Shown piece by piece: positions 910-40,079 of a stretch of 42,124 nt of DNA (position 1 is the first letter of the stretch; each line of letters starts with the position of its first letter). A program made the translations under genes and the position numbers. The notes beneath the pieces are model-generated. The model was not told where the DNA came from. It saw only the letters and a program-made list of their open reading frames with translations, and ran no database searches. Origin of the DNA: an uncultured Phycisphaera sp. (GTDB lineage Bacteria > Planctomycetota > Phycisphaerae > Phycisphaerales > UBA1924); contig CAXBOF010000001.1 in NCBI GenBank assembly GCA_963977205.1, positions 1 to 42,124 on the forward strand. Reading direction: 5' to 3'.

Positions 910-1989
910 TTACGTGAAGGCGAGCCCTTTGTCTCCCGCGCTCTCGTCACCCGGCCGGAATGCGCGCCAGCACATCGACAGTGCAAACGGCAGGAAGAAT
1001 GCAAAGAACGTACTGCCGATCGCAATGATTTCGTGCTGGCTTTCGGACCAGCACATGAAGTTCGGTGCAAACTCGTGGCCATTCTTTCCCGCGTCGCCGT
1101 CGGTCCAGAACGTGTGTGTCGTCACAAAGAGCGCAAAGGCTCCGAAAATGACAAACACGAAGCACACCGCTGTGATCACCATGTGGAGGACGCGGACGAC
1201 CTTTTCGAGACCTGTGTCACTCTGCGACTCGTCGTTTCCAGCCCTGGCAAACGCGGAAGTGAATCCGACAGAAAGCATCGCGCCTACAATTACGCCGTAC
1301 ACATTCATCCGCGCGTGATAGATGTCCTCCTGGAGGCCGGCGTCGGTCTGCACCGAGGTGTGAAACACGTCCTTGTTGTCGATCTTCAATCCGATGTTTG
1401 TCACAAGCCCCGCCATCGCCCCCAACAGGAGGACCGCGATGCCGTAAAAGCCCCAGAACCCCCAGAATGCGTTCGGATGGGTATCTTTCTTGATCGGATA
1501 CCCGCCGTGCCACAGGGCGGATATCGTCGCAGCCGCAAAAGTCCACGCGGCCATCGCGTCGAGCCCGGGGTTGCCCGCCGACCCAATCTCCATGATGGCG
1601 GGGCCCTTGAGAATGGTCGTGGTGTCGTAGGCGCATTTCTCCTGGTTCCCATTTGCGTCATTGGGAATTTTGTACGCAGCGTGATCCTGGACCGTCTCAA
1701 CAAACATCCAGAGGACGAACGCCGCAAACCCGAACATTGTTGCCATCATGATCCACCCGCGTGGGTCTTTCAGACGCTCTTTCAGACCCGCCATTCCCTT
1801 CTTTGCGTGCCAACACGCGGCGGACACAAGCATGCCCAAAGCAATCATGATGAGGCCGACCCACGAGAGCCAATGCACCGTGTCATCCGACTTTAGGTGG
1901 GACCGGACGCCAACGCCGCTGGCAAAAAGGATGCCGCCCACGACGGCGCCAGTCCCCGCAAGATCGTACCCATCTAGACTGCTGATCAT
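910..1989 (-). CDS. Multi-pass membrane protein, 359 aa, unknown function
   Basis: Uninterrupted ATG-to-stop ORF with high GC3. Several hydrophobic helices (WLSWVGLIMIALGMLVSAACW, FWGFWGFYGIAVLLLGAMAGLV, VITAVCFVFVIFGAFALFV). TATAAG lies 33 nt upstream of the ATG. Confidence 0.8.
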   Translation of the reverse strand: MISSLDGYDLAGTGAVVGGILFASGVGVRSHLKSDDTVHWLSWVGLIMIALGMLVSAACWHAKKGMAGLKERLKDPRGWIMMATMFGFAAFVLWMFVETVQDHAAYKIPNDANGNQEKCAYDTTTILKGPAIMEIGSAGNPGLDAMAAWTFAAATISALWHGGYPIKKDTHPNAFWGFWGFYGIAVLLLGAMAGLVTNIGLKIDNKDVFHTSVQTDAGLQEDIYHARMNVYGVIVGAMLSVGFTSAFARAGNDESQSDTGLEKVVRVLHMVITAVCFVFVIFGAFALFVTTHTFWTDGDAGKNGHEFAPNFMCWSESQHEIIAIGSTFFAFFLPFALSMCWRAFRPGDESAGDKGLAFT

Positions 1990-2022
1990 GGTCTGCTATA
2001 GTGAGTCGACTGGGTGCCCTTT

Positions 2023-2028
2023 CTTATA
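2023..2028 (-). promoter_or_regulatory. TATA box (TATAAG)
   Basis: 33 nt upstream of minus-strand ATG 1989. Confidence 0.5.
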
Positions 2029-2068: not shown

Positions 2069-2074
2069 TATAAG
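2069..2074 (+). promoter_or_regulatory. TATA box (TATAAG)
   Basis: 26 nt upstream of ATG 2101. Confidence 0.5.
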
Positions 2075-3824: not shown

Positions 3825-3831
3825 ATATATA
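3825..3831. promoter_or_regulatory. Bidirectional TATA element (ATATATA)
   Basis: 28 nt from minus-strand ATG 3796 and 26 nt from plus-strand ATG 3858. Confidence 0.45.
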
Positions 3832-4130: not shown

Positions 4131-5752
4131 AAGTGGTCCTCGGCGCTTTTGTGGAGAGTCCGCAGTATCGCCTTGCCGTCGAATCGTGGCAGCTTTCGAC
4201 GGTCGCGGGTGGCATCGATGTGGCCGACGGCTCGCCGGTTGATGTTCGCGGCGCAGCCGAATTGGTGCGTCACGCCCGATGTGCGGCGCCGGCTGCGTGC
4301 TGACCCTTTCCAGGTGCACTCGATGGTGCGGCAGCTGGTGCTGATGGGCTTTTGTGTGATTCAGGACGGCGTGGTGGACCCGATGGCCGCCATCTCGTGG
4401 GACAAGCAGAAGCGCGAGTGGGTTGCCCCAGTCAAGGACGAGGCTGAACCGCCCACCGTCTGCGTCTTCATGGCGCCGCTTGTGCATTCGAATGGCACTA
4501 CGCTCATGTCGTACGGCAGCGCCGCGCTGCCGGTGTGGTACCACCTGTCGGCCCTCACCGAAAATATGCGGCGGCGGGATGCGTTCAACTCGGCGCACAC
4601 CGTGTTCACCTCGGTCAATCCGAGCATGACGCCCGGCGACTCGCTCACTCCGTCCTTCATTGCGGCGCGGGGGCGGGCCGTCGGGGCCGCCGATCCAGAT
4701 TATACCACGTCTGACCGCCGGCACGAGCTGCTCGGGGACCTGATGCGCCGGTCCAACGGGCTGCGGTCCCATGGCGATGTTTTTATGGCGGGCCAGGGAT
4801 TCCCGGTCGACTCGAGGGCACCCAAGCTCCACTCGGAGCATTTTGTCACCGACGGTAAGCACCAATTTATTTTGGTCCAATCGTGCACACGGCCGGCACC
4901 GAAATCTCGCGCCCCTCGTCTGAACTCCCAAATCATGCACACGGCCCGACACCCCCACCCCTGGTTGCCCGCAATCTTCTGCTCCTGTGTCGACCCCCAA
5001 ATCGTGCACACGCCCCGACACTGGACCCCGTTCGACTCCCAAATCGTGCACACGGCCCGACACCACTGATGGCTCTGCAGGGATGAGTTCGGTGGGCGAG
5101 GCGCGACACCTGCAGGCCCCCGTGTCGGACATGAACCGGCTGGTGAAGCACTACGTGCACTCGTTCTACCAGGCGCTCGGGGTACCGCCTCAAAAGCTCG
5201 GTGCGCCGACTCTTCCTTCCCGCGCCATCGCGCCTCTCACTGACTGTGTCGCCAGGTGAGAACGTCAACTCTGAACGCCTTGCGGGATCCGAGATGATTT
5301 CGAGCGAGGCGCTGTGGACTCACGAGGCTCGAGTGCGCGATGTCCGGGATGTTGTCAACGAAGCGCTTGAGGTTCTCGGCGTCTCGCTGCGGCCGTCGGT
5401 GCGATACCGCGTCCTGGTGCAGCATCCAGAGCTGTTTGATCCGGAGAAGTACACCGACCTGCTGGCGCACTCGCTCGGGGTGCCCACCGAGTACGTGGCC
5501 CAGATCCCGGTCGAGACGGATGAGTCGACCCAGCAGCAGCCACCCACGAACGGCCGTCGGGGTGGCAATGACCACGATGCCGCCATGCAGCAAGGATCGG
5601 GGTCCCACAAACGCTGTCGCGACGGGAAGTTCTGCCAGAACAAACGGGGGGGGCCCGTGAGCGACATCCGCACTATTAGAGAACCCCATGCCAAGTTGGA
5701 TAGGGGCGAGACGCGCGTTCCGGAGGAGAAGAAGGGCCGCAATTCGGAATGA
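4103..5752 (+). CDS. Portal-like protein (tentative), 4 exons join(4103..4264,4314..4854,5081..5200,5256..5752), 439 aa
   Basis: Frames 2 -> 0 -> 1 -> 2 are linked in phase by three GT..AG introns. The spliced peptide ...VKHYVHSFYQALGVPPQKLG|GENVNSERLAGSEM... resembles the conserved ..a.GvPp.llG...sN.. segment of HK97-type phage portal proteins (recalled, not searched). The gene model is more certain than the function. Confidence 0.6.
4265..4313 (+). other. Intron, 49 nt (portal-like gene)
   Basis: GTGCGT...CTGACcctttCCAG, phase 0, frame 2 -> 0. Confidence 0.75.
4855..5080 (+). other. Intron, 226 nt, carrying four copies of a 25-nt motif (portal-like gene)
   Basis: GTAAGC...CACTGATggctctgCAG, phase 1, frame 0 -> 1. 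The only long intron in the window. Confidence 0.75.
4877..5063. repeat. Four dispersed copies of a ~25-nt motif CCCAAATCGTGCACACGGCCCGACAC inside one intron
   Basis: Copies at 4877..4900, 4927..4952, 4996..5021 and 5038..5063, with 1-3 mismatches each. Start-to-start spacings are 50, 69 and 42 nt. Confidence 0.85.
5201..5255 (+). other. Intron, 55 nt (portal-like gene)
   Basis: GTGCGC...CACTGACtgtgtcgCCAG, phase 1, frame 1 -> 2. Splits the GVPPQKLG|GENVNSE motif. Confidence 0.8.
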
Positions 5753-6681
5753 TGGACGAACGGGATGGCACCATCGTGTATGACAATGCGCTCACCGTAG
5801 ACGGCCAGCCAATGTACCACTACGCCGAGAGCGATGCGGACGGGTACATCGATCCGAGCGAATACGAGCAGCCGTTGTCCCGCGAGGCGTTCCACGAGCA
5901 CCATGCCCCCGAGGACCGATCCATTCCGGTGGTGGACGCCTCGCCCGAGACGCCGGAACGGTACCCGGCTCCGCCACGCCGTTTCTCGGCCGTTCCTGAA
6001 TCCTGGAATCCTCGCCCCGATCCTCCGCCCAAGCCTCCGCCAATCGAATCGATGCCACGGCGCCGGTCGGGACGGAGCCCACTCGTCGGCGCTGTGGGCC
6101 TGCTGGGCCTGGTGGGGTTGATCGGCATGGTGCCGTCGGACGACTCTGGTCCGGGCACTTCGGCCTCGACTGGCGCCTCGTGCCTCGTGGGATCGATCGC
6201 GTGGTCTGCTGCCCAGACGGTTCCTGCGGGGTACCGAATCGCCGACGGGTCTGAAATTGTCGAGGAGGACCACCCGGCCCTCTTTGCCGCCGTGGGGTCG
6301 GCAGTGCCCGATTTGGTGGGCCGGTACGCCCGTGGGGGCCTCGAGCCCGGTGCCGTCCTCGCCGCCTCTGTGGATGTCGGCTCGTTCTCGGTGGCCATTG
6401 ACGATCCTGGTCACTCGCACGTTGACGCAGCGGGCTCGACGGTGCTCCGCGACGGCAAGTACGCTCTGGCGCACCTCTACACGTGAGACGGCCCGCCCGG
6501 CATCGCCCCGCCCCCTCTTATGCGTGCATGCAGGTTTACGACGGACGGGGTCAACCTCAAGGACGCCGGGCCATCTGTGGTTCCTGCGCAGACGGGGATT
6601 GCTGCGCGGGTAGAGGGCGGCACCGAGACACGGCCCGCCAGCGTCGTCCTGGTTCCCCTCATCTGCACCGGCGGTCCGTAG
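5749..6681 (+). CDS. Membrane-anchored phage tail-collar domain protein, join(5749..6482,6534..6681), 293 aa
   Basis: LVGSIAWSAAQTVPAGYRIADGSEIVEEDHPALFAAVGSAVPDLVGRYARGG fits the tail-collar pattern (G.I...a....P.Gw..cdG.......yP.Lf..iG...PDLrGrf..G). Exon 2 supplies ...VEGGTETRPASVVLVPLI, the ETRP......I end of that domain. TM segment LVGAVGLLGLVGLIGMV lies upstream. The ATG overlaps the upstream stop (ATGA). Confidence 0.8.
6483..6533 (+). other. Intron, 51 nt (tail-collar gene)
   Basis: GTGAGA...ATGCAG, phase 2. The apparent stop TGA 6484..6486 is part of the donor. Splicing restores the ETRP-containing domain end. Confidence 0.85.
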
Positions 6682-6758: not shown

Positions 6759-7307
6759 ATGGGCTCGCTGTTTACAGACTTCCAGGCCGTGCTCCATTTG
6801 GCCGGGGACGCTCCCATCGTGGGCGGAGTTCGCGCGGCCGTCTTGGAGCACGGGCTTGCGTTCCCTAGCACCCCGGGGGTATTCGAACTTTTGGTCACGG
6901 TTGGGGATGATTCCCCCCCAGGGCAACAGCAGCTGTGGACGGCCATACAAGTCTTTGCTATCTTTGGTCCGGGGCTGCGCAAGGGTCCCCCGAACGACAA
7001 CCGCTGGGACGTCCACTCGTGCCGGACACAGAACCTGCCGCCTGGGGTGGTCGCAGTCCCTCCCGAGGACGACTTTGGCCGATCCCTCGAGACGCTGGCC
7101 CCGGAGCGAGTGGGGGGCCCGCCAATGCGGCTCGCGCACGTGCATCGCCTTCTGACGCGCGAGTCGGCGTCTCCCTTTATTCGGATTGTTGTCGGCGGTG
7201 CCCTCACGATCTACGTCAGCCTGACGCCATTCGTGGTCGTTGGGGCCGATGTCGAGTTTACGGTGCCGTCTGTGAAGATGGTGGGGCTCCACTGGTCTGC
7301 TCACTAG
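6759..7307 (+). CDS. Hypothetical protein, 182 aa
   Basis: High-GC3 frame from ATG 6759 (MGSLFTDFQAVL...). TATAAA at 6723..6728, 30 nt upstream. No domain recognised. Confidence 0.6.
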   Translation: MGSLFTDFQAVLHLAGDAPIVGGVRAAVLEHGLAFPSTPGVFELLVTVGDDSPPGQQQLWTAIQVFAIFGPGLRKGPPNDNRWDVHSCRTQNLPPGVVAVPPEDDFGRSLETLAPERVGGPPMRLAHVHRLLTRESASPFIRIVVGGALTIYVSLTPFVVVGADVEFTVPSVKMVGLHWSAH

Positions 7308-7525
7308 GCGCGGGTCTCGAGACGGTCGTCGGCCGTCGACATAAACGTTTCGTATGGCGCCAGTCCCCGCGCTGGCTTTGTAGTCAGCGTCTTGATGCAC
7401 GAGGCGAGCGTCAGCGCCAGCGACAGGCCCATCATGCCGACCATGGCCGCCGAGGGCGATGCGGTGCACGTTCCGTCCATCGGGGGCACATCAAAGCCCG
7501 GATAGTCACCGGACGTGTCGTCCAT
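7304..7525 (-). CDS. Small single-pass membrane protein, 73 aa
   Basis: ATG ORF with high GC3 and one TM helix (AAMVGMMGLSLALTLASCI). Sits between two plus-strand genes. AT-rich CTTATTAG lies about 30 nt upstream on the minus strand. Confidence 0.4.
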   Translation of the reverse strand: MDDTSGDYPGFDVPPMDGTCTASPSAAMVGMMGLSLALTLASCIKTLTTKPARGLAPYETFMSTADDRLETRA

Positions 7526-7603
7526 GCCCGGTTTGGACGTGCGCCGCCCGGGCCTAATAAGTGGCGCGGGATCTGGGCACGGCAGATTCGGATTTCCGAA
7601 ACG

Positions 7604-7609
7604 TATAAG
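7604..7609 (+). promoter_or_regulatory. TATA box (TATAAG) of D5-like gene
   Basis: 51 nt upstream of ATG 7661, the longest spacing in the set. Confidence 0.45.
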
Positions 7610-7660
7610 AGCCGCAGCTTGAGTGAAACACTTTCAAATCGGGCACAACCCGGCCCGCCG

Positions 7661-10600
7661 ATGTCGGCTGCACTCCCCGAGCGGATTTTCGCCCCTTGGC
7701 AAACCAAGTGCGTGCAGGCTGGTGCGACGTTCAAGGGCTCGCACTGCCTTCTCTTTACGCAGCATGTGCCCCGCGAGGCCGAGTTTGCGGATACGCACGG
7801 TGCATGCACTCCTGGCCCCCGGTGGATGGCGTATTTCGCTTTTTGCATGGAGGCGCTCCGGCGGATTCAGTGCCCCGAGACGCAGCACACGACGCTGCTG
7901 GTTGAGCAGGTGGTCGACGAGGAAACGTTTCGGGATGCGCTTGCGCGGGGAACGTGCGAGGTTACGCCGGCCCGGCCCCCACGCGCGTGGCGCTTCTGGG
8001 TCATCTTCAAGACGGTGGATTCCTACGTGCAGTTTGCCACCGCCTTTGAGCAGATGCTGGAGGAGGGGGCAGCCGCGTCAAAGAAGTGGCAGGGCACGCG
8101 GAAGGGCGGTCCGCCCAGGGTGGATCAGGCGTCGTGGGTCTCCATTGCGGGGTCTGATGACCTCATCCACGGTCTGCAGCACACTTGCAACATCCCTGGT
8201 GGCGCCAGCAGCATTGCACTCGACCCGGGAGCCGACATTGGCGCCAAGAACCACATGCTCAACCTCCAGTCGTCCGAGTTGCTGCACGTCAGTGGGGCGT
8301 GCCCCGCACAGACGGGACGATCGTACATCGATCGACCCACCCAGCCCGGCATGTTTGATGCGGGGGATGACGACTCGGGTCCGCGGCTGACCTGGCGGGC
8401 ACCCTACTCAAGGACCACGAACGCGGGCATCAACGCGGGCATCAACCCGTGCGTCGCACGCTTTCCCTTTGCGCCATGGGGCCCGAGGACGGACGATTTC
8501 CGCCGCCTGGCATACCTCGGGACTCCGACGCCCGCCCGCGTGCTAGAGCCGCACCTCCTCAATCGGGCCACTGGACCGGGCCAGGCGGACCTCATCCGCA
8601 AGCACGCGGACAGCAACACTCTCGACGAGTACCTCGCGAACACCCCGGATGTCAACGACCCGCGCGATGCGGGCATTGTCACTGGGGACTCGGACGCGGG
8701 GGGCGCTGCACTGTCCCGCTCGGCTGCCATGGCACCCGAGTTTGCACAGAACGAGGAGTCGGCATCTGCTCGCATGCGGGCCCTCCGAGTCAGCACCGAG
8801 ACCCTGGCGGACCAGGTCGAGACAGAGGCTGATATCAGGCGCTTTGTGGCCAAGATTCAAGGTCCCACTCGCTTTCTGAAGGAGGCCCCCGTCCCCGATT
8901 CCATCCCATCAAGCTACCACGCCCTGGCGACTGCTGCAGCTGCGACAGCGCGGGGTCCTGCCACGGACGCGACCAAGTGGGCCCGTGCATTCTTTGACGA
9001 CTGCCAGAACACGTCCGATCTCATGCGACGACTGTCGGTTGCGCTCGAGCGGTACGCTGGGCTGCACGTGGCTCAGGTGACTGTGTCCAACTGGGTCATC
9101 CTGGCAATCATGGCTCCGCTGCTCGGGCCGGCCCCTCGGGCGCACACTGCACTGGTGGGACAGCCCGCAGCCGGAAAAAGCTGGACGATGGACGTCCTGC
9201 GGAAGATCATGCCAGGGATGTTTTCGTCGGTCGACTACACGTCGCTCAAGGCAACCCTGGTGGACACGCTCGGGAGCCGCAAGGTCCAGGTGACGGACGA
9301 GATTGCCAAATCCGAACGGGTGAGCGGCGAGAAAACGCGGCTTTCGAGTGGCGAGGAGCGCGGCATCAGGGCCGCCGTGGTGACGGATGCCAACGGAAAC
9401 AGCAAGGTCGTCTCGCAAGACTTTACATCCGTGTGGAACCACACGCAACTCGCCTGTGGGAACCAGCCACCTCGCGGCGACACGCCAATCGACACGCTGG
9501 CGCTGCAATCGCGGCAGCAGGTGATTCACTGCGCCAACCCCAAGGGGTTTGCATCCGGGACGCCGAGGCTCCACGACCAAGTCCTGCTGGCCATCCGGAT
9601 GTTCCTGACCGGGGCTCCGATGCAGGTCGGCTACATCTGGGCTGCCGGCTGCCCCGTCGCGTCCTCGGATATGATGGAGGCGAGTCCCATGGCGCGCCGT
9701 CCCCAACCCGCGCCCGCTCATCCCTCTGCAGGTGCTGCAGGCGTACCGCCGGGTCAAGGGCAAGGCGCCAATTCCTGCGCGCGAACTGTCCCGCCTGCGT
9801 GCTGCTGCCATTGGAGCCATGTCGGTTCGGATGGGCATCGAGACACGGGGAATGGAGGGCATGGCCGTCGACGAGTACATTGTCCGCAACGCCTACGTCC
9901 GGACCGAGGACATTGTGATTGCTCTGCAGACCATGGTGCTTCCCACGCAGCCCGAGATGGCCCGCCCAGTCTCACCCGCCACAGGACGCCGTCGCGCAGT
10001 CGCATGCGGGCACCATCGTGTTCAAGGCGCTGAAGAACATGGTCAACGTGAACATTGAGCGCGATGCAGACGGAAACATTACTGGTGCGGCGGTGGAAAC
10101 CGACAACAAGGGCGAGCGGGCCATCCTTACACAGGCGATGACTCAAAAGTGGTTTGACCGTCTTGTCGCGACCGTGTGTGCGATTGCCAAGCGCGACGAC
10201 CGTGAAATGGTCCGCCTCGGCCAGCGCCCAGCCACGCGCCGGCTGCCACTCACTGCGCGCGCAGGTTCCGGCTGACGATGTTCTTCGGCGACAGCTGCAG
10301 GAAGCTACGAGCGGCGCCAGGCCCATCGTTCTCGAGTGCATCAAGAACGAATCGAGACAGGCGCTCGGGATTGACCTGAAGCAGGTTGGACCAGTCTACA
10401 CCAAGACCGAGGCTGCCATGATCAAATTCCTGCACGACATCTGCAAGACGCTTGCGTACACGGCCGTTCGGTACCCGGACGAGAATCACGTCATCTTTGG
10501 GTCGTCCATCGTTGATGACATGCGACAGGCCCATCAAACGTGTCGCAAATGGGGCCCCGGGGCCGAGAAGATGTGGACGCGAGCGACCAAGAACCTCGAT

Positions 10601-18265: not shown

Positions 18266-18641
18266 CGGCAATGGCGACCGCAGCGCCCGCAGCCAAATAG
18301 ATTTGCGCATCGCCCGTACTCGGATTTCCCACCACCGTCGTCGCCAGCAGCACAATGGTGGCCACCTGCGCGCGTCAGTCGGGTGGCGGGCCGTGTTCCG
18401 GGAATGCACCGACCATCGCAACGTCCAGCAGAATGTCGCGAGCACAGTCGGACGCGGACGAGGGCAGCCGGCCCTGACAGAATTCCGTCGCCACCGGCGC
18501 CAGCGCCAGCAGCAGGCACAGCTCGGCAGTCACCATCGCCGCCAGGCTCCACCCCACATCCCCCACGGCCGCCCAGCCCAGCAGAAGGAGCATCGCCAGA
18601 GCCCACGCCCCCAGCACGACCCATCCGCTGACCGTGGCCAT
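18105..18641 (-). CDS. Small membrane protein, complement(join(18105..18365,18414..18641)), 162 aa
   Basis: ATG 18641 lies 31 nt after a minus-strand TATATC. Hydrophobic MATVSGWVVLGAWALAMLLLLGWAAV... A 48-nt GTCGGT..CTGAC..CAG intron (phase 0) joins to VATIVLLATTVVG... The last ~160 nt overlap the 3' end of the convergent 16751..18265 gene, so the 3' end is uncertain. Confidence 0.5.
18366..18413 (-). other. Intron, 48 nt (minus strand)
   Basis: Minus-strand GTCGGT...GACTGACgcgcgCAG, phase 0. Removes an in-frame stop. Confidence 0.6.
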
Positions 18642-18672
18642 TGCACCACCATAAGAGGCTATGTCTTCCGTC

Positions 18673-18678
18673 GATATA
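18673..18678 (-). promoter_or_regulatory. TATA box (TATATC on minus strand)
   Basis: 31 nt upstream of minus-strand ATG 18641. Confidence 0.4.
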
Positions 18679-18691
18679 GGCACCCCTGCCG

Positions 18692-19835
18692 ATGCACATT
18701 TCGGGCCGGTGGTGCAACCCAGGCTCTCCCGGATTCGGCCTCGATGCCAAAGACGTCAATGGAGTCGCCTCTCGGCTCGTCGGTTCGTGTCCGCTTCCGC
18801 AATGGCCGCGCCGACCGCACTCACCGCGCCGACCGCAGGCAGGCCGCTCACCTACGAGCACACGGGCATCATCGAGGCCGCAGAGAATGCCCTCACCGCC
18901 ACAGGGGACATCAGGGCGGCCGACGTCGAGGCCCGGCTCGCAGCCAACACGGGCGCAGCGGCGCCCATCGGAAAGGTGGTGGCGGCCGATCGGCACGGGC
19001 GGTATCCGCTCCCCGCACACGCACGCCCGTTAGAGCCCGTTCTGATCCCGCCCGGAAGGTTTGTGGCCGCAATCGACGAGGGACTGCCCATGACGGCCGA
19101 GGCGGTTCGACAGCGGTACTTCGCCGTCAGCCTCACTCATGTGGGCGCCTCGAAGGAGCCGCTCGAGCTCAGCCTCACGACAGACCCCGCACGGCGGGAC
19201 GCATGGATCAAGGCGCACTATAAGGGCCAGTCGACGCGGCTGTCACAGCTCCAACAGCTCCTTAAGATGGCCGACGAATCCGCCCCTGCCCCCAGCCCCC
19301 TCGAGGCTGCGCTCGCCTCGATCACCGACCCCGAGCAGCGTGCTGCCATCGAGGCACAGCTTCGGGCGTACGAGAGCAAGTTTACGTCGCACGAGGACAA
19401 GATTGCCGAGCTGTCGAAGCACGCGAGTACGGACGAGGAGATTGTGAGGCAGCTTGCCGCCGGGCTCGTCGCGCAGTTCCAGGACCAGGCCGCCCCCCTC
19501 GGGCACGCCGACCCGGACCAGGTTGCCCCCCGCCCGCCTCGCATCCCCGACCCGGTTTAATGTGCCCGCAAATCCAGGTGATGAAGAGCCCTTTTGCGAT
19601 GCGCCAGCTTCTCGAGGTGTGCAGCCGGGGCTTTGCCGACCGCCGGGCCGCCGCATCCGGCGCTGGGGCCGCCATGGAGGTGTCGACGCCCGCACCGGTC
19701 GCAGTGCCCGAGGTGCCCGCCATTGCCGAGTCGTCGACGTCCGCCGAGGAGCCCCCGACTAAACGGGCCCGCGGTCGCAATGGTGTCAGCTCGGAGGACG
19801 CCCTGCTCCGCGCCTTTCAGCGCCGCTTCGATTAA
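18692..19835 (+). CDS. Assemblin-like maturation protease fused to scaffold (tentative), join(18692..18782,18839..19521,19578..19835), 343 aa
   Basis: The spliced N-terminus gives ...ASRLVGRPLTYEHTG (cf herpesvirus assemblin PLNINHD, catalytic His). RYFAVSLTHVGASKEP matches YLPSVSLATKRLGGEA (catalytic Ser). LELSLTTDPARR matches FAHVALCAIGRR. The C-terminal half is coiled-coil-like, and the proposed last exon ends in the amphipathic SSEDALLRAFQRRFD. All comparisons are from memory. Unspliced alternative end: 19560. Confidence 0.5.
18783..18838 (+). other. Intron, 56 nt (protease-scaffold gene)
   Basis: GTTCGT...CTCACcgcgccgaccgCAG, phase 1, frame 2 -> 1. Creates the RPLTYEH context. Confidence 0.5.
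19522..19577 (+). other. Intron, 56 nt (protease-scaffold gene, tentative)
   Basis: GTTGCC...TTAATgtgcccgcaaatcCAG, phase 0. Bypasses stop 19558..19560 and appends an 85-aa C-terminal exon. Confidence 0.4.
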
Positions 19836-21461: not shown

Positions 21462-21468
21462 TATATAT
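21462..21468. promoter_or_regulatory. Bidirectional TATA element (TATATAT)
   Basis: The only AT-rich element in the 69-nt divergent spacer. 26 nt from plus-strand ATG 21495 and 36 nt from minus-strand ATG 21425. Confidence 0.55.
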
Positions 21469-29854: not shown

Positions 29855-30937
29855 ATGGACTCGGGCACAGACTCGGACAGTTCGGCCGGGATGGTCGCGC
29901 CGTCTGGATGGCAGGATCTTGTCCAGATCGCGCCCGGGGTACACGCGGCCACCGGGCGGGACGGCAGAAGGGTGGTCATCAAGGCGTTTTTGCCCGATCA
30001 CGACTACCGAGATGCAAACCTGGCGGCCGCGGGCATTGGGGCGCTACTCTTGCCGGACCAGGGCAAATTCGATCCGAACACAGTTGTGCCAAATCTAGTC
30101 TTTACGGGCAGGGAACCTCGCCAGTACCCTCCCTGCAAAAGGCTCGGCACCAGCGGACTCGTGTACTGCGATGCCGAGCTGACTGACGAAGGAGTTGCAC
30201 TTCCAAACACTCGGAGGCGATCCGTCGTCGACGACGATACTGGCACGGAGTACGTCCCCAAAGCAATTCGCGTGCTCCCACTGCACACCCGTGACATTTC
30301 AGTCATCTCAGAGTGCCTGGAACAGTGCCGACTGCTCAAGCCGGGGAGCGAGGATGTCACGATTGTTTTTGAGTGGCTGTGCGACCTGGCCGAGACGCTC
30401 TCCGATTATGGGGTGCATCTGACCGACCTCAAGGCGGACAACATGGTCTGCACTCGGCCGGCGGGGAAGCTGCAGCCAAAGCTGATTGACTGGGATCAGG
30501 TTGTGCACTATGGCATTGGCGGGGACTACAGGCGCGAGGAGCCGCGTTCGTGCACCACCTTCTTCAACTACGTGCACCTGATGCTGGCGAATGACCCCGA
30601 CCGGCTCCACACGCTGCTAGAGTGCGGGGCGGCGCGGACGGTGTACGAGGCGGGACTCGCGACGCTCAAGTTAGTATTCGACCCATCGGGCCGCGCCTCT
30701 CCGGAACACCCGCCGGTGGCCAAGGCATACCTGCCCCTCGAGGCGCTGACGACTGCCAACATTGCCATGTGCGACCCTCGGCCGCCCACCGTCCGGCCTG
30801 CGCTGACCGCCGACCGCAGGTACGCGATACAGTACGGATGGAACCTGCCGCCCGAATTTGGAAACCTCGACATGGAGTACACGTGGGCGTGGGTCGCAGT
30901 AGATCCGACGTTTGCAGCTGCACCCATGGCGCTATAA
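29855..30937 (+). CDS. Protein kinase-like protein, 360 aa
   Basis: RVVIKAF (VAIK-like Lys), VHLTDLKADNMV (HxDxKxxN catalytic loop), KLIDWDQ (DFG-position). Start moved to ATG 29855, downstream of the TATA at 29830..29836. Confidence 0.75.
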   Translation: MDSGTDSDSSAGMVAPSGWQDLVQIAPGVHAATGRDGRRVVIKAFLPDHDYRDANLAAAGIGALLLPDQGKFDPNTVVPNLVFTGREPRQYPPCKRLGTSGLVYCDAELTDEGVALPNTRRRSVVDDDTGTEYVPKAIRVLPLHTRDISVISECLEQCRLLKPGSEDVTIVFEWLCDLAETLSDYGVHLTDLKADNMVCTRPAGKLQPKLIDWDQVVHYGIGGDYRREEPRSCTTFFNYVHLMLANDPDRLHTLLECGAARTVYEAGLATLKLVFDPSGRASPEHPPVAKAYLPLEALTTANIAMCDPRPPTVRPALTADRRYAIQYGWNLPPEFGNLDMEYTWAWVAVDPTFAAAPMAL

Positions 30938-31109
30938 GGATTAGACACGCCAGTGCCAACCGCGCGCCCTCTATGGATGATGCAACAGAGTGCAATCTGC
31001 TGTGCAGAGCGCTTGCGCGATGGGCGTGGGTCACAGTAGATCCGACGTTTGCAGCTGCACCCATGGCGCTATAAGGATTAGACACGCCAGTGCCAACCGC
31101 GCACCCTCT
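30884..31109. repeat. 89-bp direct duplication of the kinase gene 3' end plus downstream sequence
   Basis: 30884..30972 and 31021..31109 differ at 2 positions. The spacer is 48 nt. Confidence 0.9.
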
Positions 31110-31141
31110 GTGAAACAGGGCAGAAGCATCCCCGCTTTCAG

Positions 31142-32448
31142 ATGGAAAAGAAGACGTACATCATCTCATGGAACGCCATCGCGGCGGCGATCCACTTTGG
31201 CGTCGCAGGATTCGTAATCTCGGAGGTCGCCGGCGGCGCTTTCCGGGTGCCAGTGCATCCGCTGACGCTCGCTCCAGGTGTACCAGCATCCGTGGGAGGC
31301 CCCCTTTGTCGTCCAGTATTCCCAGTGGAATCAGACGGGCGATGAGCGGTGCTCGGCCGAATCCCAGTGCCTCATCGCGCAAGCCTCGGTGCGCAAAACG
31401 CGTCTGCCAGGGCGCGCCCGTCCTGACTGGACCACTTCCGCAGATTGACTGGGGCACGGCCAATGTCGGCATGATCGTGGGTCGGATGCCCTGCCGCCAG
31501 CCCGCCCGCCCTGACGCGCTGCAGGTGCCATTCTTCAGCGTCATCTCCGGGGCCCATCATGCCGCCGTCGCCGTGTGGGTCGGTTGGGAGGGGGTCGATG
31601 CCTACCTCAAAATGGCCAAACGGGGCAACTGGCTGCGGGCAGTTGACTATGCACTCTCGTCGTCCCTGATGCTCGTCGTCACATCCATCCTGTTTCGGTC
31701 GCCGCCCGACGTGCCAACCCTGATGCTCGTGGCTGCAGTCCAGAGCGCCATCATCCTCATCGGGTACCTCCTCGAACGACTCCAGTACCGCCAGACCACT
31801 ACGGAGGAAAGGCAACCGCTTTTATCGGGCCAGGGAGACGACATCTCTACAGTGGACACTGCTGCGATTCAAGGCGATTTGACCGCGGATACGACGTCCG
31901 GGAAGCAGGCCTTTGGCGTGTGGATCCCGTTTGCGGCGTCGATGCTGATTTACGCTTTGGTGTGGACCAGCCTCCTGATCCCTTTTCACTACGCGGTGGA
32001 AGATGCGCCGACGGCGGTGGTGATTTTCATTGCGAGTCTTGCGGCACCCGGTGCGCGGCGAGGTCTGACTGTGGCCGCTGCAGGTCTACCTGGTGGCGAC
32101 GTTCACGCTCTTCCCGATCGTGTTTGTGTTTGGGGCGCCGGGACTGGGTCGCGAGACGGGCTTTCTGATTCTGAGCATGCTTGCCAAGGTGGGCAGTCCT
32201 GTGGCGGCACTGCGGCGACATTGCACGCTGACCGCGGCGCCCAGGTTCCGCTTCTGATGCTCTTTTACTTTGGGATTGTGGCGCGGTCGGGGACGGTTGT
32301 GTTCGAACGGCTGGAGGGTGCATTCAACACGACCGGCTCGTCCTCGTCCGCCAGCGACACCGAACTGTACATCGCGTTCGGCGCCTCTATTGCCGTCGTG
32401 ACCATCGTGGCCATCCTGATGTGGGGGACCAGGCCGAACCGAAAGTAG
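31142..32448 (+). CDS. Heliorhodopsin, 6 exons join(31142..31225,31278..31388,31444..31476,31525..32040,32084..32188,32245..32448), about 350 aa
   Basis: The spliced product aligns by eye with heliorhodopsin 48C12 (recalled from memory). AIHFGVAG matches GVFHLLQ. SGAHHAAV matches SALFHFIV. NWLRAVDYALSSSLMLVV matches NIFRWVEYSLSSSVMIVL, with Asp at the counterion position. RETGFLILSMLAK matches GERAYIVLSLVAK, the Schiff-base Lys (codon 32186..32188). That lysine exon is in a different frame from the long track ORF. The junction at 32017..32083 is unresolved. Confidence 0.85.
31226..31277 (+). other. Heliorhodopsin intron 1, 52 nt
   Basis: GTCGCC...CTGACgctcgctcCAG, phase 0, frame 2 -> 0. Confidence 0.7.
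31389..31443 (+). other. Heliorhodopsin intron 2, 55 nt
   Basis: GTGCGC...CTGACtggaccacttccgCAG, phase 0, frame 0 -> 1. Confidence 0.75.
31477..31524 (+). other. Heliorhodopsin intron 3, 48 nt, in-frame and retainable
   Basis: GTGGGT...CTGACgcgctgCAG, phase 0. Removal deletes VGRMPCRQPARPDALQ and gives VGMIVPFFSVISGAHH, which aligns with the heliorhodopsin TM2 region. Confidence 0.65.
32041..32083 (+). other. Heliorhodopsin intron 4, donor unresolved (GC-AG 43 nt shown; GT donors at 32017 or 32020 are alternatives)
   Basis: Acceptor CTGACtgtggccgctgCAG at 32083 is required to enter the frame encoding the lysine exon. Only phase-0 donors work. The consensus-looking GTGCGC at 32051 is out of phase. 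Confidence 0.3.
32189..32244 (+). other. Heliorhodopsin intron 5, 56 nt
   Basis: AAG|GTGGGC...CTGACcgcggcgccCAG, phase 0, immediately after the Schiff-base Lys codon. Returns to frame 1. Confidence 0.85.
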
Positions 32449-34581: not shown

Positions 34582-35940
34582 TCAGTCCGTCTCTACGACG
34601 GCGGTGATGCCGGGCCCGACTGTAAAGAGCTCGCGCCTGGTGGCACGCTGGGCGGCGACGAGGAAGTGCGTCTTCCGGATGCTTCCGTTTCCGACGACGT
34701 GAACGCCTGCTGGGGCCGTCATGCCCTGAGCCATGTCGATGGTGAAGCCGCCTGTGGGAGTTTAGCGGGCGCGCGCCCACATCCGCGCGGGCCTGGAAAT
34801 ACCGTGCCGGATGGGAACCACAAAGTGGCCTTCGAGCTCGAGGGGCTGCAGCGACACCTCTTCGCCAGTGCTGAGGATCGTGACGACGACGATGGCGTTT
34901 TCACCCATGACGACCGAGTCGGCCTCGATCTCTTCGCCGTCCTCGGAGATGACGCGCTCAAATCGGATGTCAGTCCCGTTGGTGAGCAGCGTCCCCCTTT
35001 CGGTGGCCCTGGCCTTGGTGTCAATGTCGACGCAGCCGTAGACGAGCCAGCCCTTGGTGTGGCCGCCCACAAAGCGCCCATCTTCGGCGTCCTTGCCGCG
35101 CTCCTTGGGGATGGTTTCGGGGTCGCTGGGGAGCAGCAGGATGCCCTCTCTGTCATTCTCGCGGAACTGCCGCACTGCTTCCCGCACATCCTCCCTGATC
35201 TGCCCGAGGATCAGAGCCCCCTCTGGCGGAACGGCAGCCCGACGCTGCCGGACAAGCTGATCCGCCAGCCCGCCCGGGATTTGCCATTCCTGGAGCTCGC
35301 TGAGGACGCGCTTCCAGTCGGGGTCCGTGTACCGCCGCGACTCTTTCAGCTCGATCGGGGGCGCCCTGCGCAGCAGAGGATGCGTGGATGCGGGCTTTCC
35401 ACCCCTCGGCTTGATCTGGCCCTCGTCGCCCACAAACAGGACGCGGACGCCGCCAAACGGCATCGACCTCGCCCGAAAGGTGCACCTCAGGATGGCATCC
35501 AGCTTGGCAATCTCGGCCGATGTCCACAGGCCAAACTCTTCGACGACAAGGATCTTTGGCGTCCCGGCGGGCGTATTGTACCACGGCTTTGATTTGGCAG
35601 TGCCGAGGGGAACCTTTGCCCACCATTTGGCGTCGATGGCGATCTTGGCCCACACGACGGCTTCTGGTGGGTAGCTGCCCCGCGGAACGGCGAGCCCGGC
35701 AATCGTCTGCCGGTGCTGCCCCAGCGACTTGTGGCTGATGGCAGTCACCATCACGCGGCAGCCGGCGTTTACCCAGCATCTGAGGACGTCTGCCACGACG
35801 ACGGACTTGCCAGTTCCGGCTTTCCCTATGAGCAGCACAACGCGGTGCGCCTCGAATAAGTCGCCGATCTGATCCGCTGCGGCCCTTTGCTCGCCCGACA
35901 GCACGGGGGGAGCCTGCGGAGTGGATTCGCGCCCGTCCAT
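34582..35940 (-). CDS. Pif1/RecD-like SF1 helicase, complement(join(34582..34751,34803..35940)), 435 aa
   Basis: Walker A LLIGKAGTGKSVV, motif II KILVVEEFG, MPFGGVRVLFVGDEGQIKP. Removing a 51-nt GTATTT..CTAAAC..CAG intron (phase 1) adds GFTIDMAQGMT...HFLVAAQRATRRELFTV, the C-terminal conserved motifs of this helicase type. Confidence 0.85.
34752..34802 (-). other. Intron, 51 nt (SF1 helicase gene, minus strand)
   Basis: Minus-strand GTATTT...CTAAACtcccaCAG, phase 1. Removes stop 34762..34764 and restores the helicase C-terminal motifs. Confidence 0.85.
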
Positions 35941-36093
35941 GTGCTCTGGCGGGGGAGACGCTTCAGCCGACGCGGGAAATTCTGGGCCCTCTGGATGTGA
36001 AAACTGCCAGGTAGCAGGCTTTTGATTTCAGAAACTGTGCATACATGCGGGCCTGCAAAAGTGTCAGAACTGCAGAGGCGCCGCGGCCGTCGT

Positions 36094-39797: not shown

Positions 39798-40079
39798 TTA
39801 ATTTGAGCGCCCCCCGGGCTTATAGCCAACCACCTCAGAGGCTGCCCGGTGCCCGGAAGCAATGTGCCGGTTCAGGGTGCCCTTGCGGAAAAAGAGTCGA
39901 CCGCAGATGTGGCACTGGAACTGCGGCGGATGGTGGTACACGACGTGCCCGTCGGACGTGGGGTTGTGGCAGATGGAGCACAGGGGGCCCTCAACGGGTG
40001 TATCGAACTCCAACAAGGAGCGCCAGCTGGGTGAGGAGCGCACCGGCAAACAGCGTGGGTGCTGCACACCGTCCGACAT
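39798..40079 (-). CDS. C2H2 zinc-finger ORF, 93 aa (separate small gene or alternative 3' exon of the upstream gene)
   Basis: FQCHICGRLFFRKGTLNRHIASGH is a canonical C2H2 finger, preceded by CSICHNPTSDGH. The ATG at 40079 overlaps the 3' end of the 39991..40524 gene in another frame. The stop lies 10 nt before the next ATG. Confidence 0.4.
   Translation of the reverse strand: MSDGVQHPRCLPVRSSPSWRSLLEFDTPVEGPLCSICHNPTSDGHVVYHHPPQFQCHICGRLFFRKGTLNRHIASGHRAASEVVGYKPGGRSN
39819..39824 (-). promoter_or_regulatory. TATA box (TATAAG) inside the upstream zinc-finger ORF
   Basis: 31 nt upstream of minus-strand ATG 39787. Confidence 0.5.

What the first reader, a model, noticed from the sequence alone, without database searches (positions are those of the whole stretch)
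18692..19835. Assemblin-like protease-scaffold fusion with a Glu in place of the second catalytic His and a spliced-on C-terminal helix
After removing a 56-nt intron, the N-terminal domain shows three blocks in herpesvirus assemblin order:
- RPLTYEH, matching PLNINH (catalytic His);
- FAVSLTHVGAS, matching SVSLATKRLGG (catalytic Ser);
- LELSLTTDPARR, matching FAHVALCAIGRR, where the His position is Glu.
The rest is a Gln/Glu/Ala-rich coiled coil, as in scaffold proteins. A second 56-nt intron (19522..19577) would bypass the stop at 19558. It would append a tail ending ...SSEDALLRAFQRRFD, reminiscent of the capsid-binding C-terminal helix of scaffold proteins. If correct, this is direct evidence for an HK97-lineage capsid assembly pathway in this element.
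Basis: inference. Interest (0 to 1): 0.7.

Follow-up and report, generated by a model that had tools for sequence, protein, structure and literature searches.

The report
Spliced mirusvirus capsid protease-scaffold gene

Summary
Window 18692..19835 (+) is one gene of four exons: 18692-18782, 18839-19001, 19059-19521 and 19578-19835.

The spliced 324-aa protein aligns end to end with uninterrupted ~330-aa proteins from other marine metagenomes. In 33 family members H38, S109, E121 and R130 are invariant.

An AlphaFold model has pLDDT of at least 95 over residues 1-140. Its best solved-structure matches are all herpesvirus proteases, and its best viral-model matches are HK97-type phage prohead proteases. 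A weak but collinear profile alignment puts H38, S109, E121 and R130 on HSV-1 H61, S129, H148 and R157. A His-Ser-Glu triad is already a recognised variant in this protease superfamily.

The rest of the protein is a coiled coil, a herpes-M-site-like motif (LLEVC|S), a KRAR nuclear-import-like signal and a C-terminal amphipathic helix.

The window is a Tara Oceans contig that also carries a heliorhodopsin, which fits a mirusvirus. The capsid maturation protease (2023) and the intron richness (2025) of mirusviruses are published.

One modestly new point: a conserved TATAAG sits 36-48 nt upstream of a universally conserved internal Met. This suggests a nested, UL26.5-like scaffold gene.

The parts
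18692..18782 (+). Exon 1 (residues 1-30 plus 1 nt): MHISGRWCNPGSPGFGLDAKDVNGVASRLV(G). It supplies strand beta1 and helix A of the protease domain.
   Evidence: ATGCACATTTC[A/G]GG is conserved in all four loci. Family N-termini read M..[FV][SA]G.W. pLDDT is 96-97.
18783..18838 (+). Intron 1: 56 nt, GTTCGT...CTCAC...CGCAG, phase 1.
   Evidence: Relatives have 60-nt (L001) and 155-nt (L007) GT..AG segments at the same place, 30-62% identical to the window, between conserved exons. Intronless homologues run gap-free across the junction.
18839..19001 (+). Exon 2 (residues 31-85): RPLTYEH38, a two-helix insertion, then PIGKVVAADRHG (beta3).
   Evidence: H38 (18859-18861) and G75 are invariant. H38 aligns with HSV-1 H61.
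19002..19058 (+). Intron 2: 57 nt, in frame, GTATCC...CTGAT...GGAAG.
   Evidence: L001 (48 nt, GTGAGG..CTGAC..CACAG) and L007 (52 nt) have unrelated out-of-frame GT..AG segments here. No homologue carries the 19-residue insertion that retention would give.
19059..19521 (+). Exon 3 (residues 85-239). It holds the rest of the protease core: S109 (19129-19131), E121 (19165-19167), R130 (19192-19194) and Y139-K140 (19219-19224). It then holds the linker, the internal Met155 (19267-19269), the PLEAAL motif and the coiled coil.
   Evidence: Invariant residues. Strands beta5, beta6 and beta7 and a long helix over residues 176-226. hhalign to HK97 gp4 and to herpes proteases.
19219..19224 (+). TATAAG (codons Y139-K140). 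Candidate internal TATA element, 48 nt upstream of the internal ATG.
   Evidence: A TATA motif lies 36-48 nt upstream of the internal ATG in all 13 lineages with DNA. The motif Tyr is TAT in 8/8 GC-rich lineages, against 4 TAT: 35 TAC elsewhere in the same genes (Fisher P 1.6e-6). The same TATAWR-to-ATG spacing recurs at other genes of the window.
19267..19269 (+). Internal ATG (Met155, context aagATGg). Candidate start of a nested 170-aa scaffold-only protein.
   Evidence: A Met followed by A/E/S/D/T sits at the protease/scaffold boundary in 33/33 family members, inside an otherwise unconserved linker.
19522..19577 (+). Intron 3: 56 nt, GTTGCC...AATCCAG, phase 0. It contains the in-frame stop at 19558-19560.
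   Evidence: Precisely absent from L001, L003 and L007. P0002-P0005 read through the junction. Close relatives P0001 and P0007 retain it.
19578..19835 (+). Exon 4 (residues 240-324 plus stop). It holds a helix with LLEVC254|S255 (candidate maturation cleavage site), a disordered Ala/Pro/Glu segment, KRAR (residues 301-304, NLS-like) and the C-terminal amphipathic helix EDALLRAFQRRFD (312-324).
   Evidence: The motif [LVIM]-x-[AVC]-[CA]-[SN] is found in 32/33 members, 35-89 residues from the C-terminus. A KRxR-like signal is found in 28/33. Helices at 244-267 and 311-323.

Best explanation
Window 18692..19835 is the capsid maturation protease-scaffold gene of a marine, GC-rich, intron-bearing mirusvirus.

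Gene structure and protein (shown). The host spliceosome would have to remove three short GT-AG introns (56, 57 and 56 nt) to give a 324-aa protein. Residues 1-140 form a minimal prohead-protease/assemblin-fold serine protease. Its predicted triad is His38-Ser109-Glu121, with Arg130 at the position of the herpesvirus oxyanion-hole arginine. Residues 155-324 are the scaffold: a coiled coil, a helix carrying a herpes-M-site-like motif, a basic KRAR signal and a C-terminal amphipathic helix.

Mechanism (inferred by analogy with herpesvirus UL26/UL26.5 and phage lambda C/Nu3).
1. The scaffold part binds the HK97-fold major capsid protein through its C-terminal helix.
2. The basic signal carries the complex into the nucleus.
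3. The coiled coil nucleates procapsid assembly.
4. The tethered protease then cuts the scaffold, probably at or beside ...LLEVC|S..., so that it can leave before DNA packaging.
5. A second, more abundant scaffold-only product is probably made from the internal Met155, driven by the TATAAG embedded in codons Y139-K140.

Not shown here: the splicing itself, catalysis, the cleavage sites, nuclear import, capsid binding and the nested transcript.
For: Gene model:
- Intron presence/absence and length polymorphism fall exactly at GT..AG boundaries in related contigs.
- The spliced product matches uninterrupted homologues end to end.
- dN/dS is 0.08-0.17.

Protease:
- H38, G75, S109, E121, P128, R130 and Y139 are invariant in 33 sequences.
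- The AF2 model has pLDDT of at least 95 over residues 1-140.
- Foldseek PDB: the top 11 hits are all herpesvirus proteases, best E 2.2e-3, probability 1.0.
- Foldseek BFVD: the best named hits are phage prohead proteases, and the top-ranked entries (best E 3.3e-6) carry no name in the table.
- hhalign versus the HK97 gp4 family (P 0.004) aligns S109~S114 and E121~E141.
- hhalign versus seven herpes proteases (P 0.006-0.06) is collinear, with H38~H61, S109~S129, E121~H148 and R130~R157.
- 12 of 33 members weakly hit Pfam PF25720 'Herpesvirus ORF28 domain' on the Ser..Glu..PAR segment, best E 1.7e-5. IcHV-1 ORF28 is the alloherpesvirus protease-and-scaffold protein (PMC3203048).
- A His-Ser-His/Glu triad is recognised for this superfamily (PMC5601938).

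Scaffold:
- Long helices and a C-terminal helix; conserved tail motifs.

Nested gene:
- Boundary Met in 33/33 members.
- TATA motif 36-48 nt upstream in 13/13 lineages; codon-bias test P 1.6e-6.
- TATAWR is about 6-fold over-represented in the window and usually lies 31-57 nt before gene starts.

Virus identity:
- Heliorhodopsin ORF.
- The window is a whole Tara Oceans contig.
- Mirusvirus hallmarks and introns are published (PMC10132985, PMC12768974).
Against: - No member reaches a Pfam threshold for S21, S78 or PF25720.
- HMMER profile searches of PDB sequences find only coiled-coil noise.
- The profile-profile scores are weak.
- I could not superpose coordinates, so the triad geometry was not measured.
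- No RNA data were available, so splicing and the internal transcript are inferred.
- The LLEVC|S motif lies in a confidently predicted helix. It could be a binding interface rather than a cleavage site.
- No R-site-like motif was found at the protease/scaffold junction.
- The only TATA-like element upstream of ATG 18692 is about 17-19 nt away. That is shorter than at other genes, so the main transcription start is unclear.
- I did not identify the major capsid protein gene in this window.
Confidence: 0.88

Rival explanations
1. The conserved Tyr-Lys and boundary Met are protein-level constraints, for example the end of strand beta7 and a linker or cleavage residue. On this view they are not an internal promoter and start codon, and only the full-length fusion is made.
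For: - Y139 is invariant as an amino acid and ends strand beta7.
- Some phage protease-scaffold fusions work without a nested product (general knowledge).
- No RNA evidence was available here.
Against: - TAT is used in 8/8 GC-rich lineages against a 10% background (P 1.6e-6).
- L028 has lost Y-K but keeps GTATAT at -41, built from rare codons.
- The Met sits in an otherwise unconserved linker, is always followed by A/E/S/D/T and has a purine at -3 in all six lineages where the start-codon context was read.
- The spacing matches the TATAWR-to-ATG spacing of other genes in the window.
Confidence: 0.3
2. The N-terminal domain has the protease fold but is catalytically dead. The protein would then act only as a scaffold or core protein, and another enzyme would do the processing.
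For: - No Pfam protease family is hit at threshold.
- The domain is much smaller than assemblin and lacks its dimerisation helices.
- Mirusviruses also commonly encode trypsin-like proteins (PMC10132985).
Against: - H38, S109, E121 and R130 are invariant across 33 sequences that are otherwise only 20-48% identical.
- These residues fall on the catalytic positions of herpes and HK97 proteases.
- Dead enzymes normally lose such residues.
Confidence: 0.07
3. There is no splicing. The locus would be two ordinary adjacent ORFs, 18661..19560 (299 aa) and 19560..19835 (91 aa), as a prokaryote-style gene caller reports.
For: Both ORFs are open. Public gene calls such as P0001, P0186 and P0010 are of this kind.
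Against: - Relatives fuse the two ORFs exactly at the GT..AG boundaries.
- ATG 18661 and its frame-1 N-terminus are not conserved, whereas the ATG 18692 frame-2 exon is conserved and forms strand beta1 of a confident fold.
- Full-length intronless homologues match only the spliced product.
Confidence: 0.03
4. The element is a decaying endogenous viral insertion in a eukaryotic genome, not an active virus, and the introns were acquired after endogenisation.
For: - Spliceosomal introns are typical of host genes.
- Endogenous mirusvirus-like elements are known (PMC10827195).
Against: - Strong purifying selection on the spliced CDS.
- An intact catalytic set.
- Syntenic relatives on 58-135 kb contigs in several metagenomes.
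- Intron-rich free mirusvirus genomes with transcript support are published (PMC12768974).
Confidence: 0.1

Closest known systems
Mirusvirus capsid maturation protease (hallmark of the Mirusviricota virion module; Gaia et al. 2023, PMC10132985)
   Same: - Same ecological source: a Tara Oceans contig.
- Heliorhodopsin on the same contig.
- Prohead-protease fold.
- Introns of the kind described for intron-rich mirusviruses, which are enriched in virion genes (PMC12768974).
   Different: The published main texts I read name the gene. They do not describe its triad, its scaffold fusion, its tail motifs or a nested start. I could not run the authors' HMM, so identity with their family is inferred.
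Herpesvirus assemblin / UL26-UL26.5 protease-scaffold module (MEROPS S21, Pfam PF00716)
   Same: - Same fold (best PDB matches).
- Same order of catalytic His and Ser, and an Arg nine residues after the third triad position.
- N-terminal protease fused to a scaffold with an NLS-like signal and a C-terminal amphipathic helix.
- A hydrophobic-x-small|small motif upstream of the tail, resembling the M site (V/L/I)-X-A|S.
- Probable in-frame nested scaffold gene with a promoter inside the protease coding region.
   Different: - Glu replaces the second His.
- The core is about 140 aa instead of 220-250, and it lacks the C-terminal dimer-interface helices.
- It carries a roughly 35-residue helical insertion after the catalytic His.
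- The Ser-to-third-residue hairpin is 12 residues, against 19-25.
- No Pfam S21 hit, and no recognisable R site.
- The gene is interrupted by spliceosomal introns.
HK97-type phage prohead protease (gp4; MEROPS S78, Pfam PF04586) and phage protease-scaffold fusions such as lambda C/Nu3
   Same: - Best Foldseek matches among viral models.
- Compact core.
- Shared motifs: PVGKW~P[VI]G.V, GMSVGF~GLSLTH and E-I-S-V-x-x-x-P-A~E-L-S-L-T-x-x-P-A.
- Acidic third residue.
- Nested in-frame scaffold expression is also known in lambda (my own knowledge).
   Different: - No Pfam S78 hit.
- Invariant Arg130 where HK97 gp4 has Asn.
- Eukaryotic features: introns, an NLS-like signal and TATA elements.
Alloherpesvirus capsid protease-and-scaffolding protein (IcHV-1 ORF28, AngHV-1 ORF57, CyHV-3 ORF78; probably Pfam PF25720)
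   Same: This is the only Pfam family that the mirusvirus family touches. 12 of 33 members hit it, always on the Ser..Glu..PAR segment. The architecture is also a protease-scaffold fusion.
   Different: All hits are below the curated cut-off (at most 24.7 bits against 40). The window's own protein does not hit. I could not verify what PF25720 was built from beyond its name.

Membership tests
Peptidase S21 (herpesvirus assemblin, PF00716) | Significant match to the family profile | tested here: not met
   No hit at E<=10 for the spliced protein or its N-domain. None of the 33 family members lists PF00716. The HSV-1 control scores 325 bits.
Peptidase S21 (herpesvirus assemblin, PF00716) | Assemblin fold (seven-stranded beta-barrel core) | tested here: met
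   Foldseek PDB: ranks 1-11 are KSHV, HSV-2, HCMV, PrV and VZV proteases, E 2e-3 to 0.4, probability up to 1.0. The model is confident.
Peptidase S21 (herpesvirus assemblin, PF00716) | Ser-His-His catalytic triad | tested here: not met
   The position aligned to HSV-1 H148 is the invariant E121. His and Ser are present.
Peptidase S21 (herpesvirus assemblin, PF00716) | Self-cleavage at M and R sites, (V/L/I)-X-A|S | tested here: inconclusive
   An M-site-like motif [LVIM]-x-[AVC]-[CA]-[SN] is found in 32/33 members, 35-89 aa from the C-terminus. No R-site-like motif was found. Cleavage itself cannot be tested here.
Peptidase S78 (HK97 prohead protease, PF04586) | Significant match to the family profile | tested here: not met
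   No PF04586 hit. The HK97 gp4 control scores 105 bits. hhalign to gp4 homologues gives only P 0.004 and probability 8%.
Peptidase S78 (HK97 prohead protease, PF04586) | Prohead-protease fold with His, Ser and a downstream E-x-S-x-x-x-x-P-A strand | tested here: met
   29 BFVD matches at E<=1e-3 (best 3.3e-6). Nearly all that carry a name are phage prohead or head-maturation proteases, or head proteins that may be protease fusions. S109~S114 and E121~E141 in hhalign. gp4 sequence read.
Mirusviricota capsid maturation protease (Gaia 2023) | Encoded in a mirusvirus genome | tested here: inconclusive
   Supporting: heliorhodopsin ORF, a Tara Oceans contig, short GT-AG introns with CYSAC/CTGAC-like branch sites as published (PMC12768974). 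However, the MCP, triplex, portal and terminase genes were not identified in this window.
Mirusviricota capsid maturation protease (Gaia 2023) | Match to the authors' dedicated HMM | not testable with these tools
Alloherpesvirus protease domain (PF25720 Herpes_ORF28) | Match at the curated threshold (40 bits) | tested here: not met
   Best 24.7 bits (E 1.7e-5). 12/33 members hit, always at profile positions ~147-211. The window protein itself has no hit.
Spliceosomal introns of intron-rich mirusviruses | GT-AG boundaries, short length, variable presence between close relatives | tested here: met
   Window introns are 56, 57 and 56 nt. L001 has 48, 60 and 48 nt; L007 has 62, 155 and 52 nt. One intron is unique to the relatives and one is unique to the window lineage.
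Spliceosomal introns of intron-rich mirusviruses | Spliced reads in RNA | not testable with these tools
   No read-level metatranscriptome access.
Nested protease/scaffold expression (UL26/UL26.5 type) | In-frame internal start with its own promoter inside the protease coding region | tested here: inconclusive
   Sequence signatures only: Met in 33/33 members, TATA at -36..-48 in 13/13 lineages, codon test P 1.6e-6. No transcript or protein data.

The most novel reading that the evidence does not exclude
The herpesvirus UL26/UL26.5 strategy may extend to Mirusviricota. In that strategy a low-abundance protease-scaffold fusion and an abundant scaffold-only protein are made from an in-frame nested gene whose promoter lies inside the protease coding sequence. 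Here the promoter would be hard-wired as a TATAAG formed by the Tyr-Lys codons at the end of the protease domain, 36-48 nt before a universally conserved Met. Together with the NLS-like signal and the M-site-like motif, this would date the whole nuclear, scaffold-escorted assembly programme to before the herpesvirus-mirusvirus split. Conservation of this architecture has so far been argued only within Herpesvirales (PMC11565193).
Probability: 0.55. Interest if true: 0.5.

Novelty: new member of a known kind. Interest (0 to 1): 0.35.

Why it matters
For this contig, the work replaces two wrong prokaryote-style gene calls with the correct four-exon gene and identifies it as the capsid protease-scaffold.

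More broadly, the family alignment gives testable residues for the mirusvirus protease: H38, S109, E121 and R130. It also gives a candidate cleavage site, a nuclear-import signal and a capsid-binding helix. These support the published idea that intron-rich mirusviruses assemble capsids in the nucleus.

The TATAAG/Met155 signature gives a direct way to ask whether nested scaffold expression predates the herpesvirus-mirusvirus divergence, using existing Tara metatranscriptomes.

None of this overturns current views.

Tried and rejected
- Pfam and PHROGs scans of the unspliced and spliced protein gave nothing useful.
- phmmer and a profile hmmsearch against PDB sequences returned only coiled-coil or chance hits.
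- Single-sequence AlphaFold was useless, with pLDDT 47 and an all-helix model.
- A first hhalign run with four alphaherpesvirus sequences in -glob mode gave a meaningless alignment.
- A word-indexed search with the protease-domain profile A3 found only close relatives, so there was no bridge to S21 or S78.
- A search for HK97 gp4 homologues returned only close relatives (at least 68% identity), giving a shallow S78 profile.
I replaced it with a degenerate DNA pattern scan of metagenome contigs. That gave 13 true family loci, representing six lineages that I then examined, and 4 false ones.
- Aurantiochytrium mirusvirus elements were considered as the source and rejected. They are 42-45% GC, against 64% here.
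- ATG 18661 was considered as the start and rejected because it is not conserved.
- The alternative 56-nt intron 18787..18842 was considered and rejected, because only the 18783/18838 pairing is compatible with L001.
- H112 of 'SLTH' was considered as the third triad residue and rejected. It is Thr in five members.
- Pfam scans of neighbouring and other large ORFs did not reveal MCP, portal or terminase.
Full report
**What is in the sequence**

The window is 64% G+C throughout. Mechanical ORF listing gives a 299-aa ORF at 18661..19560 and a 91-aa ORF at 19560..19835 on the + strand. The second ends ...SSEDALLRAFQRRFD.

**Gene model**

A search with the joined product found close relatives (77-79% identity). 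In these the tail is contiguous with the body...PEQV|MNSPFEMRRLLEV...RAFQRRFD (P0002-P0005). A 96%-identical relative (P0001) reads into the intron, as the window does.

I fetched the contigs behind these proteins and aligned the DNA. Four results followed.

- The 56 nt at 19522..19577 are exactly missing from L001, L003 and L007.
- At 18783..18838 all sequences lose similarity and differ in length (56, 60 and 155 nt), while keeping GT..AG ends between conserved coding flanks.
- The same holds at 19002..19058 (57, 48 and 52 nt).
- The relatives carry a further intron after 'FGLEPE' that the window lacks.

The L001 introns all carry CTGAC about 10 nt before the AG. The window introns carry CTCAC, CTGAT and CCGAC. 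These agree with the branch-site consensus sequences reported for intron-rich mirusviruses (PMC12768974).

ATG 18692 (MHISGRWC) is conserved in all four loci. ATG 18661 is not.

The spliced CDS uses exons 18692-18782, 18839-19001, 19059-19521 and 19578-19835, and encodes 324 aa. An exhaustive HMMER search with it found 43 relatives. Several are single uninterrupted ORFs of 327-334 aa that align from residue 1 to 324 (P0008, P0009, P0011, P0012; E 7e-66 to 1e-41). No gaps fall at the three junctions. dN/dS between the window, L001 and L007 is 0.08-0.17, while the introns are 30-62% identical. I regard all three introns as established by comparison, though not by RNA.

**What the protein is**

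In a 33-sequence alignment that is otherwise only 20-48% identical, the invariant residues are H38, G75, S109, E121, P128, R130 and Y139.

Single-sequence tools see nothing. With the alignment, AlphaFold gives pLDDT of at least 95 for residues 1-140. The order of elements is:

- beta1, helix A, beta2, then H38;
- two inserted helices;
- beta3, beta4, helix D;
- beta5, which carries S109;
- beta6, which carries E121;
- beta7.

A long helix follows at 176-226, then a helix at 244-267, a disordered stretch and a terminal helix at 311-323.

Foldseek against the PDB ranks herpesvirus proteases in places 1-11: KSHV 2pbk (E 2.2e-3, probability 1.0), then HSV-2, HCMV, PrV and VZV. Against predicted viral structures there are 29 matches at E<=1e-3, best 3.3e-6. 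Nearly all those that carry a name are HK97-type (COG3740) phage prohead proteases, or head proteins that may be protease fusions. No herpesvirus protein appears among the named entries of the top 50, though many entries are unnamed. The domain is therefore a compact member of the prohead-protease/assemblin fold.

**Residue correspondence**

HK97 gp4 was read from its genome record. It has H65 (FFNH), PVGKW, S114 (GMSVGF) and E141-ISVCTFPAN. hhalign of the mirusvirus profile against gp4 homologues is weak (P 0.004). It still aligns PVG.V with PVGKW, S109 with S114 and E121 with E141.

I rebuilt seven herpesvirus protease sequences from PDB alignments. hhalign against them is also weak (P 0.006-0.06) but collinear over the whole domain:

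- HISGRW with IYVAGF;
- PLTYEH38 with PINVDH61;
- AVS109L with SVS129L;
- E121LSLTTDPAR130 with H148VALCAIGRR157.

E121 therefore sits where the second His of assemblin sits. The invariant R130 sits nine residues later, as do HSV-1 R157 and HCMV R166. From my own knowledge these are the oxyanion-hole arginines; PMC4498786 confirms the Ser-His-His triad and an oxyanion-hole loop.

Twelve of 33 members give sub-threshold hits to Pfam PF25720 'Herpesvirus ORF28 domain', always on this Ser..Glu..PAR segment (best E 1.7e-5, 24.7 bits against a cut-off of 40). ORF28 of ictalurid herpesvirus 1 is the alloherpesvirus capsid protease-and-scaffolding protein (PMC3203048).

A published alignment of capsid maturation proteases from Teratorn, allo-, ortho- and malacoherpesviruses and phages labels the triad 'His-Ser-His/Glu' (PMC5601938). 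The T4/phiKZ group uses Asp at that position (PMC5694885). The Glu is therefore a known state of this superfamily, not an anomaly.

The family fails the profile tests for S21 and S78. I file it as the mirusvirus branch of the superfamily, not as a member of either Pfam family.

**The scaffold part**

After a variable linker come several conserved features:

- a conserved PLEaAL..l..e.R motif and a coiled coil;
- a helix with the motif [LVIM]-x-[AVC]-[CA]-[SN] (window LLEVC254-S255), found in 32/33 members, 35-89 residues from the C-terminus;
- a KRxR-type basic signal in 28/33 members (window KRAR, residues 301-304);
- a terminal amphipathic helix ending in a conserved Phe.

This mirrors herpesvirus scaffold proteins. 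These have an M site (V/L/I)-X-A|S upstream of a C-terminal capsid-binding helix, and nuclear localisation signals that escort the capsid protein into the nucleus (background cited in PMC13030845).

Whether LLEVC|S is actually cut is not shown. It lies in a confidently modelled helix and could be an interface instead. I found no R-site-like motif.

**A nested scaffold gene?**

Every one of the 33 proteins has a Met followed by A, E, S, D or T at the protease/scaffold boundary, within an otherwise unconserved linker. In the window this is Met155 (ATG 19267, context aagATGg).

In the DNA of all 13 lineages I could read, a TATA motif lies 36-48 nt upstream of that ATG. It is usually TATAAG/TATAAA, made by the Tyr139-Lys140 codons. 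In the eight lineages with GC3 of at least 0.75, this Tyr is always TAT. The other Tyr codons of the same genes are 4 TAT to 35 TAC (Fisher P 1.6e-6). One lineage (L028) has lost Tyr-Lys but keeps GTATAT at -41, using rare codons.

In the window as a whole, TATAWR occurs 21 times against 3.3 expected (0 of 100 shuffles reach 21). It usually lies 31-57 nt upstream of an ATG that opens a long ORF, and two sites are bidirectional TATATA elements.

This is the signature expected of an internal promoter and start for a scaffold-only protein of 170 aa. It would parallel UL26.5 inside UL26, an arrangement shown to be conserved across Herpesvirales (PMC11565193, PMC13030845). It remains an inference until 5' ends are mapped.

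**What the element is**

- The window carries a heliorhodopsin ORF (31168-32448; Pfam E 3.5e-10).
- It equals a complete 42,124-nt contig held by NCBI, ENA and Tara.
- Relatives lie on syntenic contigs of 58-135 kb from other metagenomes.

Mirusviruses are defined by an HK97-type virion module that includes a capsid maturation protease, and they commonly encode heliorhodopsins (PMC10132985). Many lineages are rich in short spliceosomal introns concentrated in virion genes, with variable positions between close relatives (PMC12768974).

The Aurantiochytrium elements are excluded as the source by their 42-45% GC. I did not identify the capsid, portal or terminase genes in this window.

**Verdict**

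The gene belongs to a known hallmark family of a known virus phylum. Its introns are a published phenomenon, and the Glu is a recognised variant. The additions here are:

- the third intron;
- the invariant His-Ser-Glu-Arg set;
- the closer structural kinship to HK97-type proteases;
- the tail motifs;
- the TATAAG/Met155 evidence for a nested scaffold gene.

Noticed in passing
window, whole; e.g. 2023-2028(-), 2069-2074(+), 3826-3831(both strands), 7604-7609(+), 21462-21467(both strands), 31070-31075(+), 39819-39824(-): TATAWR is about 6-fold over-represented (21 sites against 3.3 expected). It usually lies 31-57 nt upstream of an ATG that opens a long ORF. Two TATATA sites sit between divergent genes. 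This looks like the element's promoter grammar.
   Followed up: partly
window 30884-30975 and 31021-31112: A 92-nt direct repeat, 97% identical with 137-nt spacing. Each copy carries GCGCTATAAGGATT, just upstream of the heliorhodopsin ORF. It looks like a duplicated promoter region.
   Followed up: partly
window 31168-32448 (+): ORF with a heliorhodopsin domain (PF18761, E 3.5e-10). Heliorhodopsins are a common mirusvirus gene.
   Followed up: no
window 34765-36027 (-): ORF with AAA_30 / PIF1-like helicase domains (E 1e-12 and 1.6e-7).
   Followed up: no
window 5704-6483 (+): ORF with a borderline Phage Tail Collar domain hit (PF07484, 24.0 bits, exactly at the cut-off of 24).
   Followed up: no
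window 18375-18641 (-): A small hydrophobic ORF (MATVSGWVVLGAWALAMLLLLGW...) is transcribed divergently from the protease gene. Its start region CCGTGGCCAT..CCACCATAAG is nearly invariant in L001, L003 and L007.
   Followed up: no
window 6935-10033 (+): The 1032-aa mechanical ORF has a TATAAG at 7604 and an ATG at 7661 that opens 790 aa. The real gene may start there. Its function is unknown (no Pfam hit).
   Followed up: no
window 18673-18680 and 18692: The only TATA-like element before the main start codon (GATATAGG) is just 17-19 nt upstream. That is much closer than at other genes, so the 5' end of the full-length transcript is unclear.
   Followed up: no
L007 578-732: In this relative, intron 1 is expanded to 155 nt by low-complexity runs of C, T and A. 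L001, L003 and L007 also have an extra intron (48-62 nt) after codon 20 that the window lacks.
   Followed up: partly
window 913-1995 (-): ORF with a sub-threshold match to cytochrome bd oxidase subunit II (26 bits against a cut-off of 35.6). It is probably just a multi-pass membrane protein. It is preceded by TATAAG at 2023-2028, 39 nt before its ATG.
   Followed up: no
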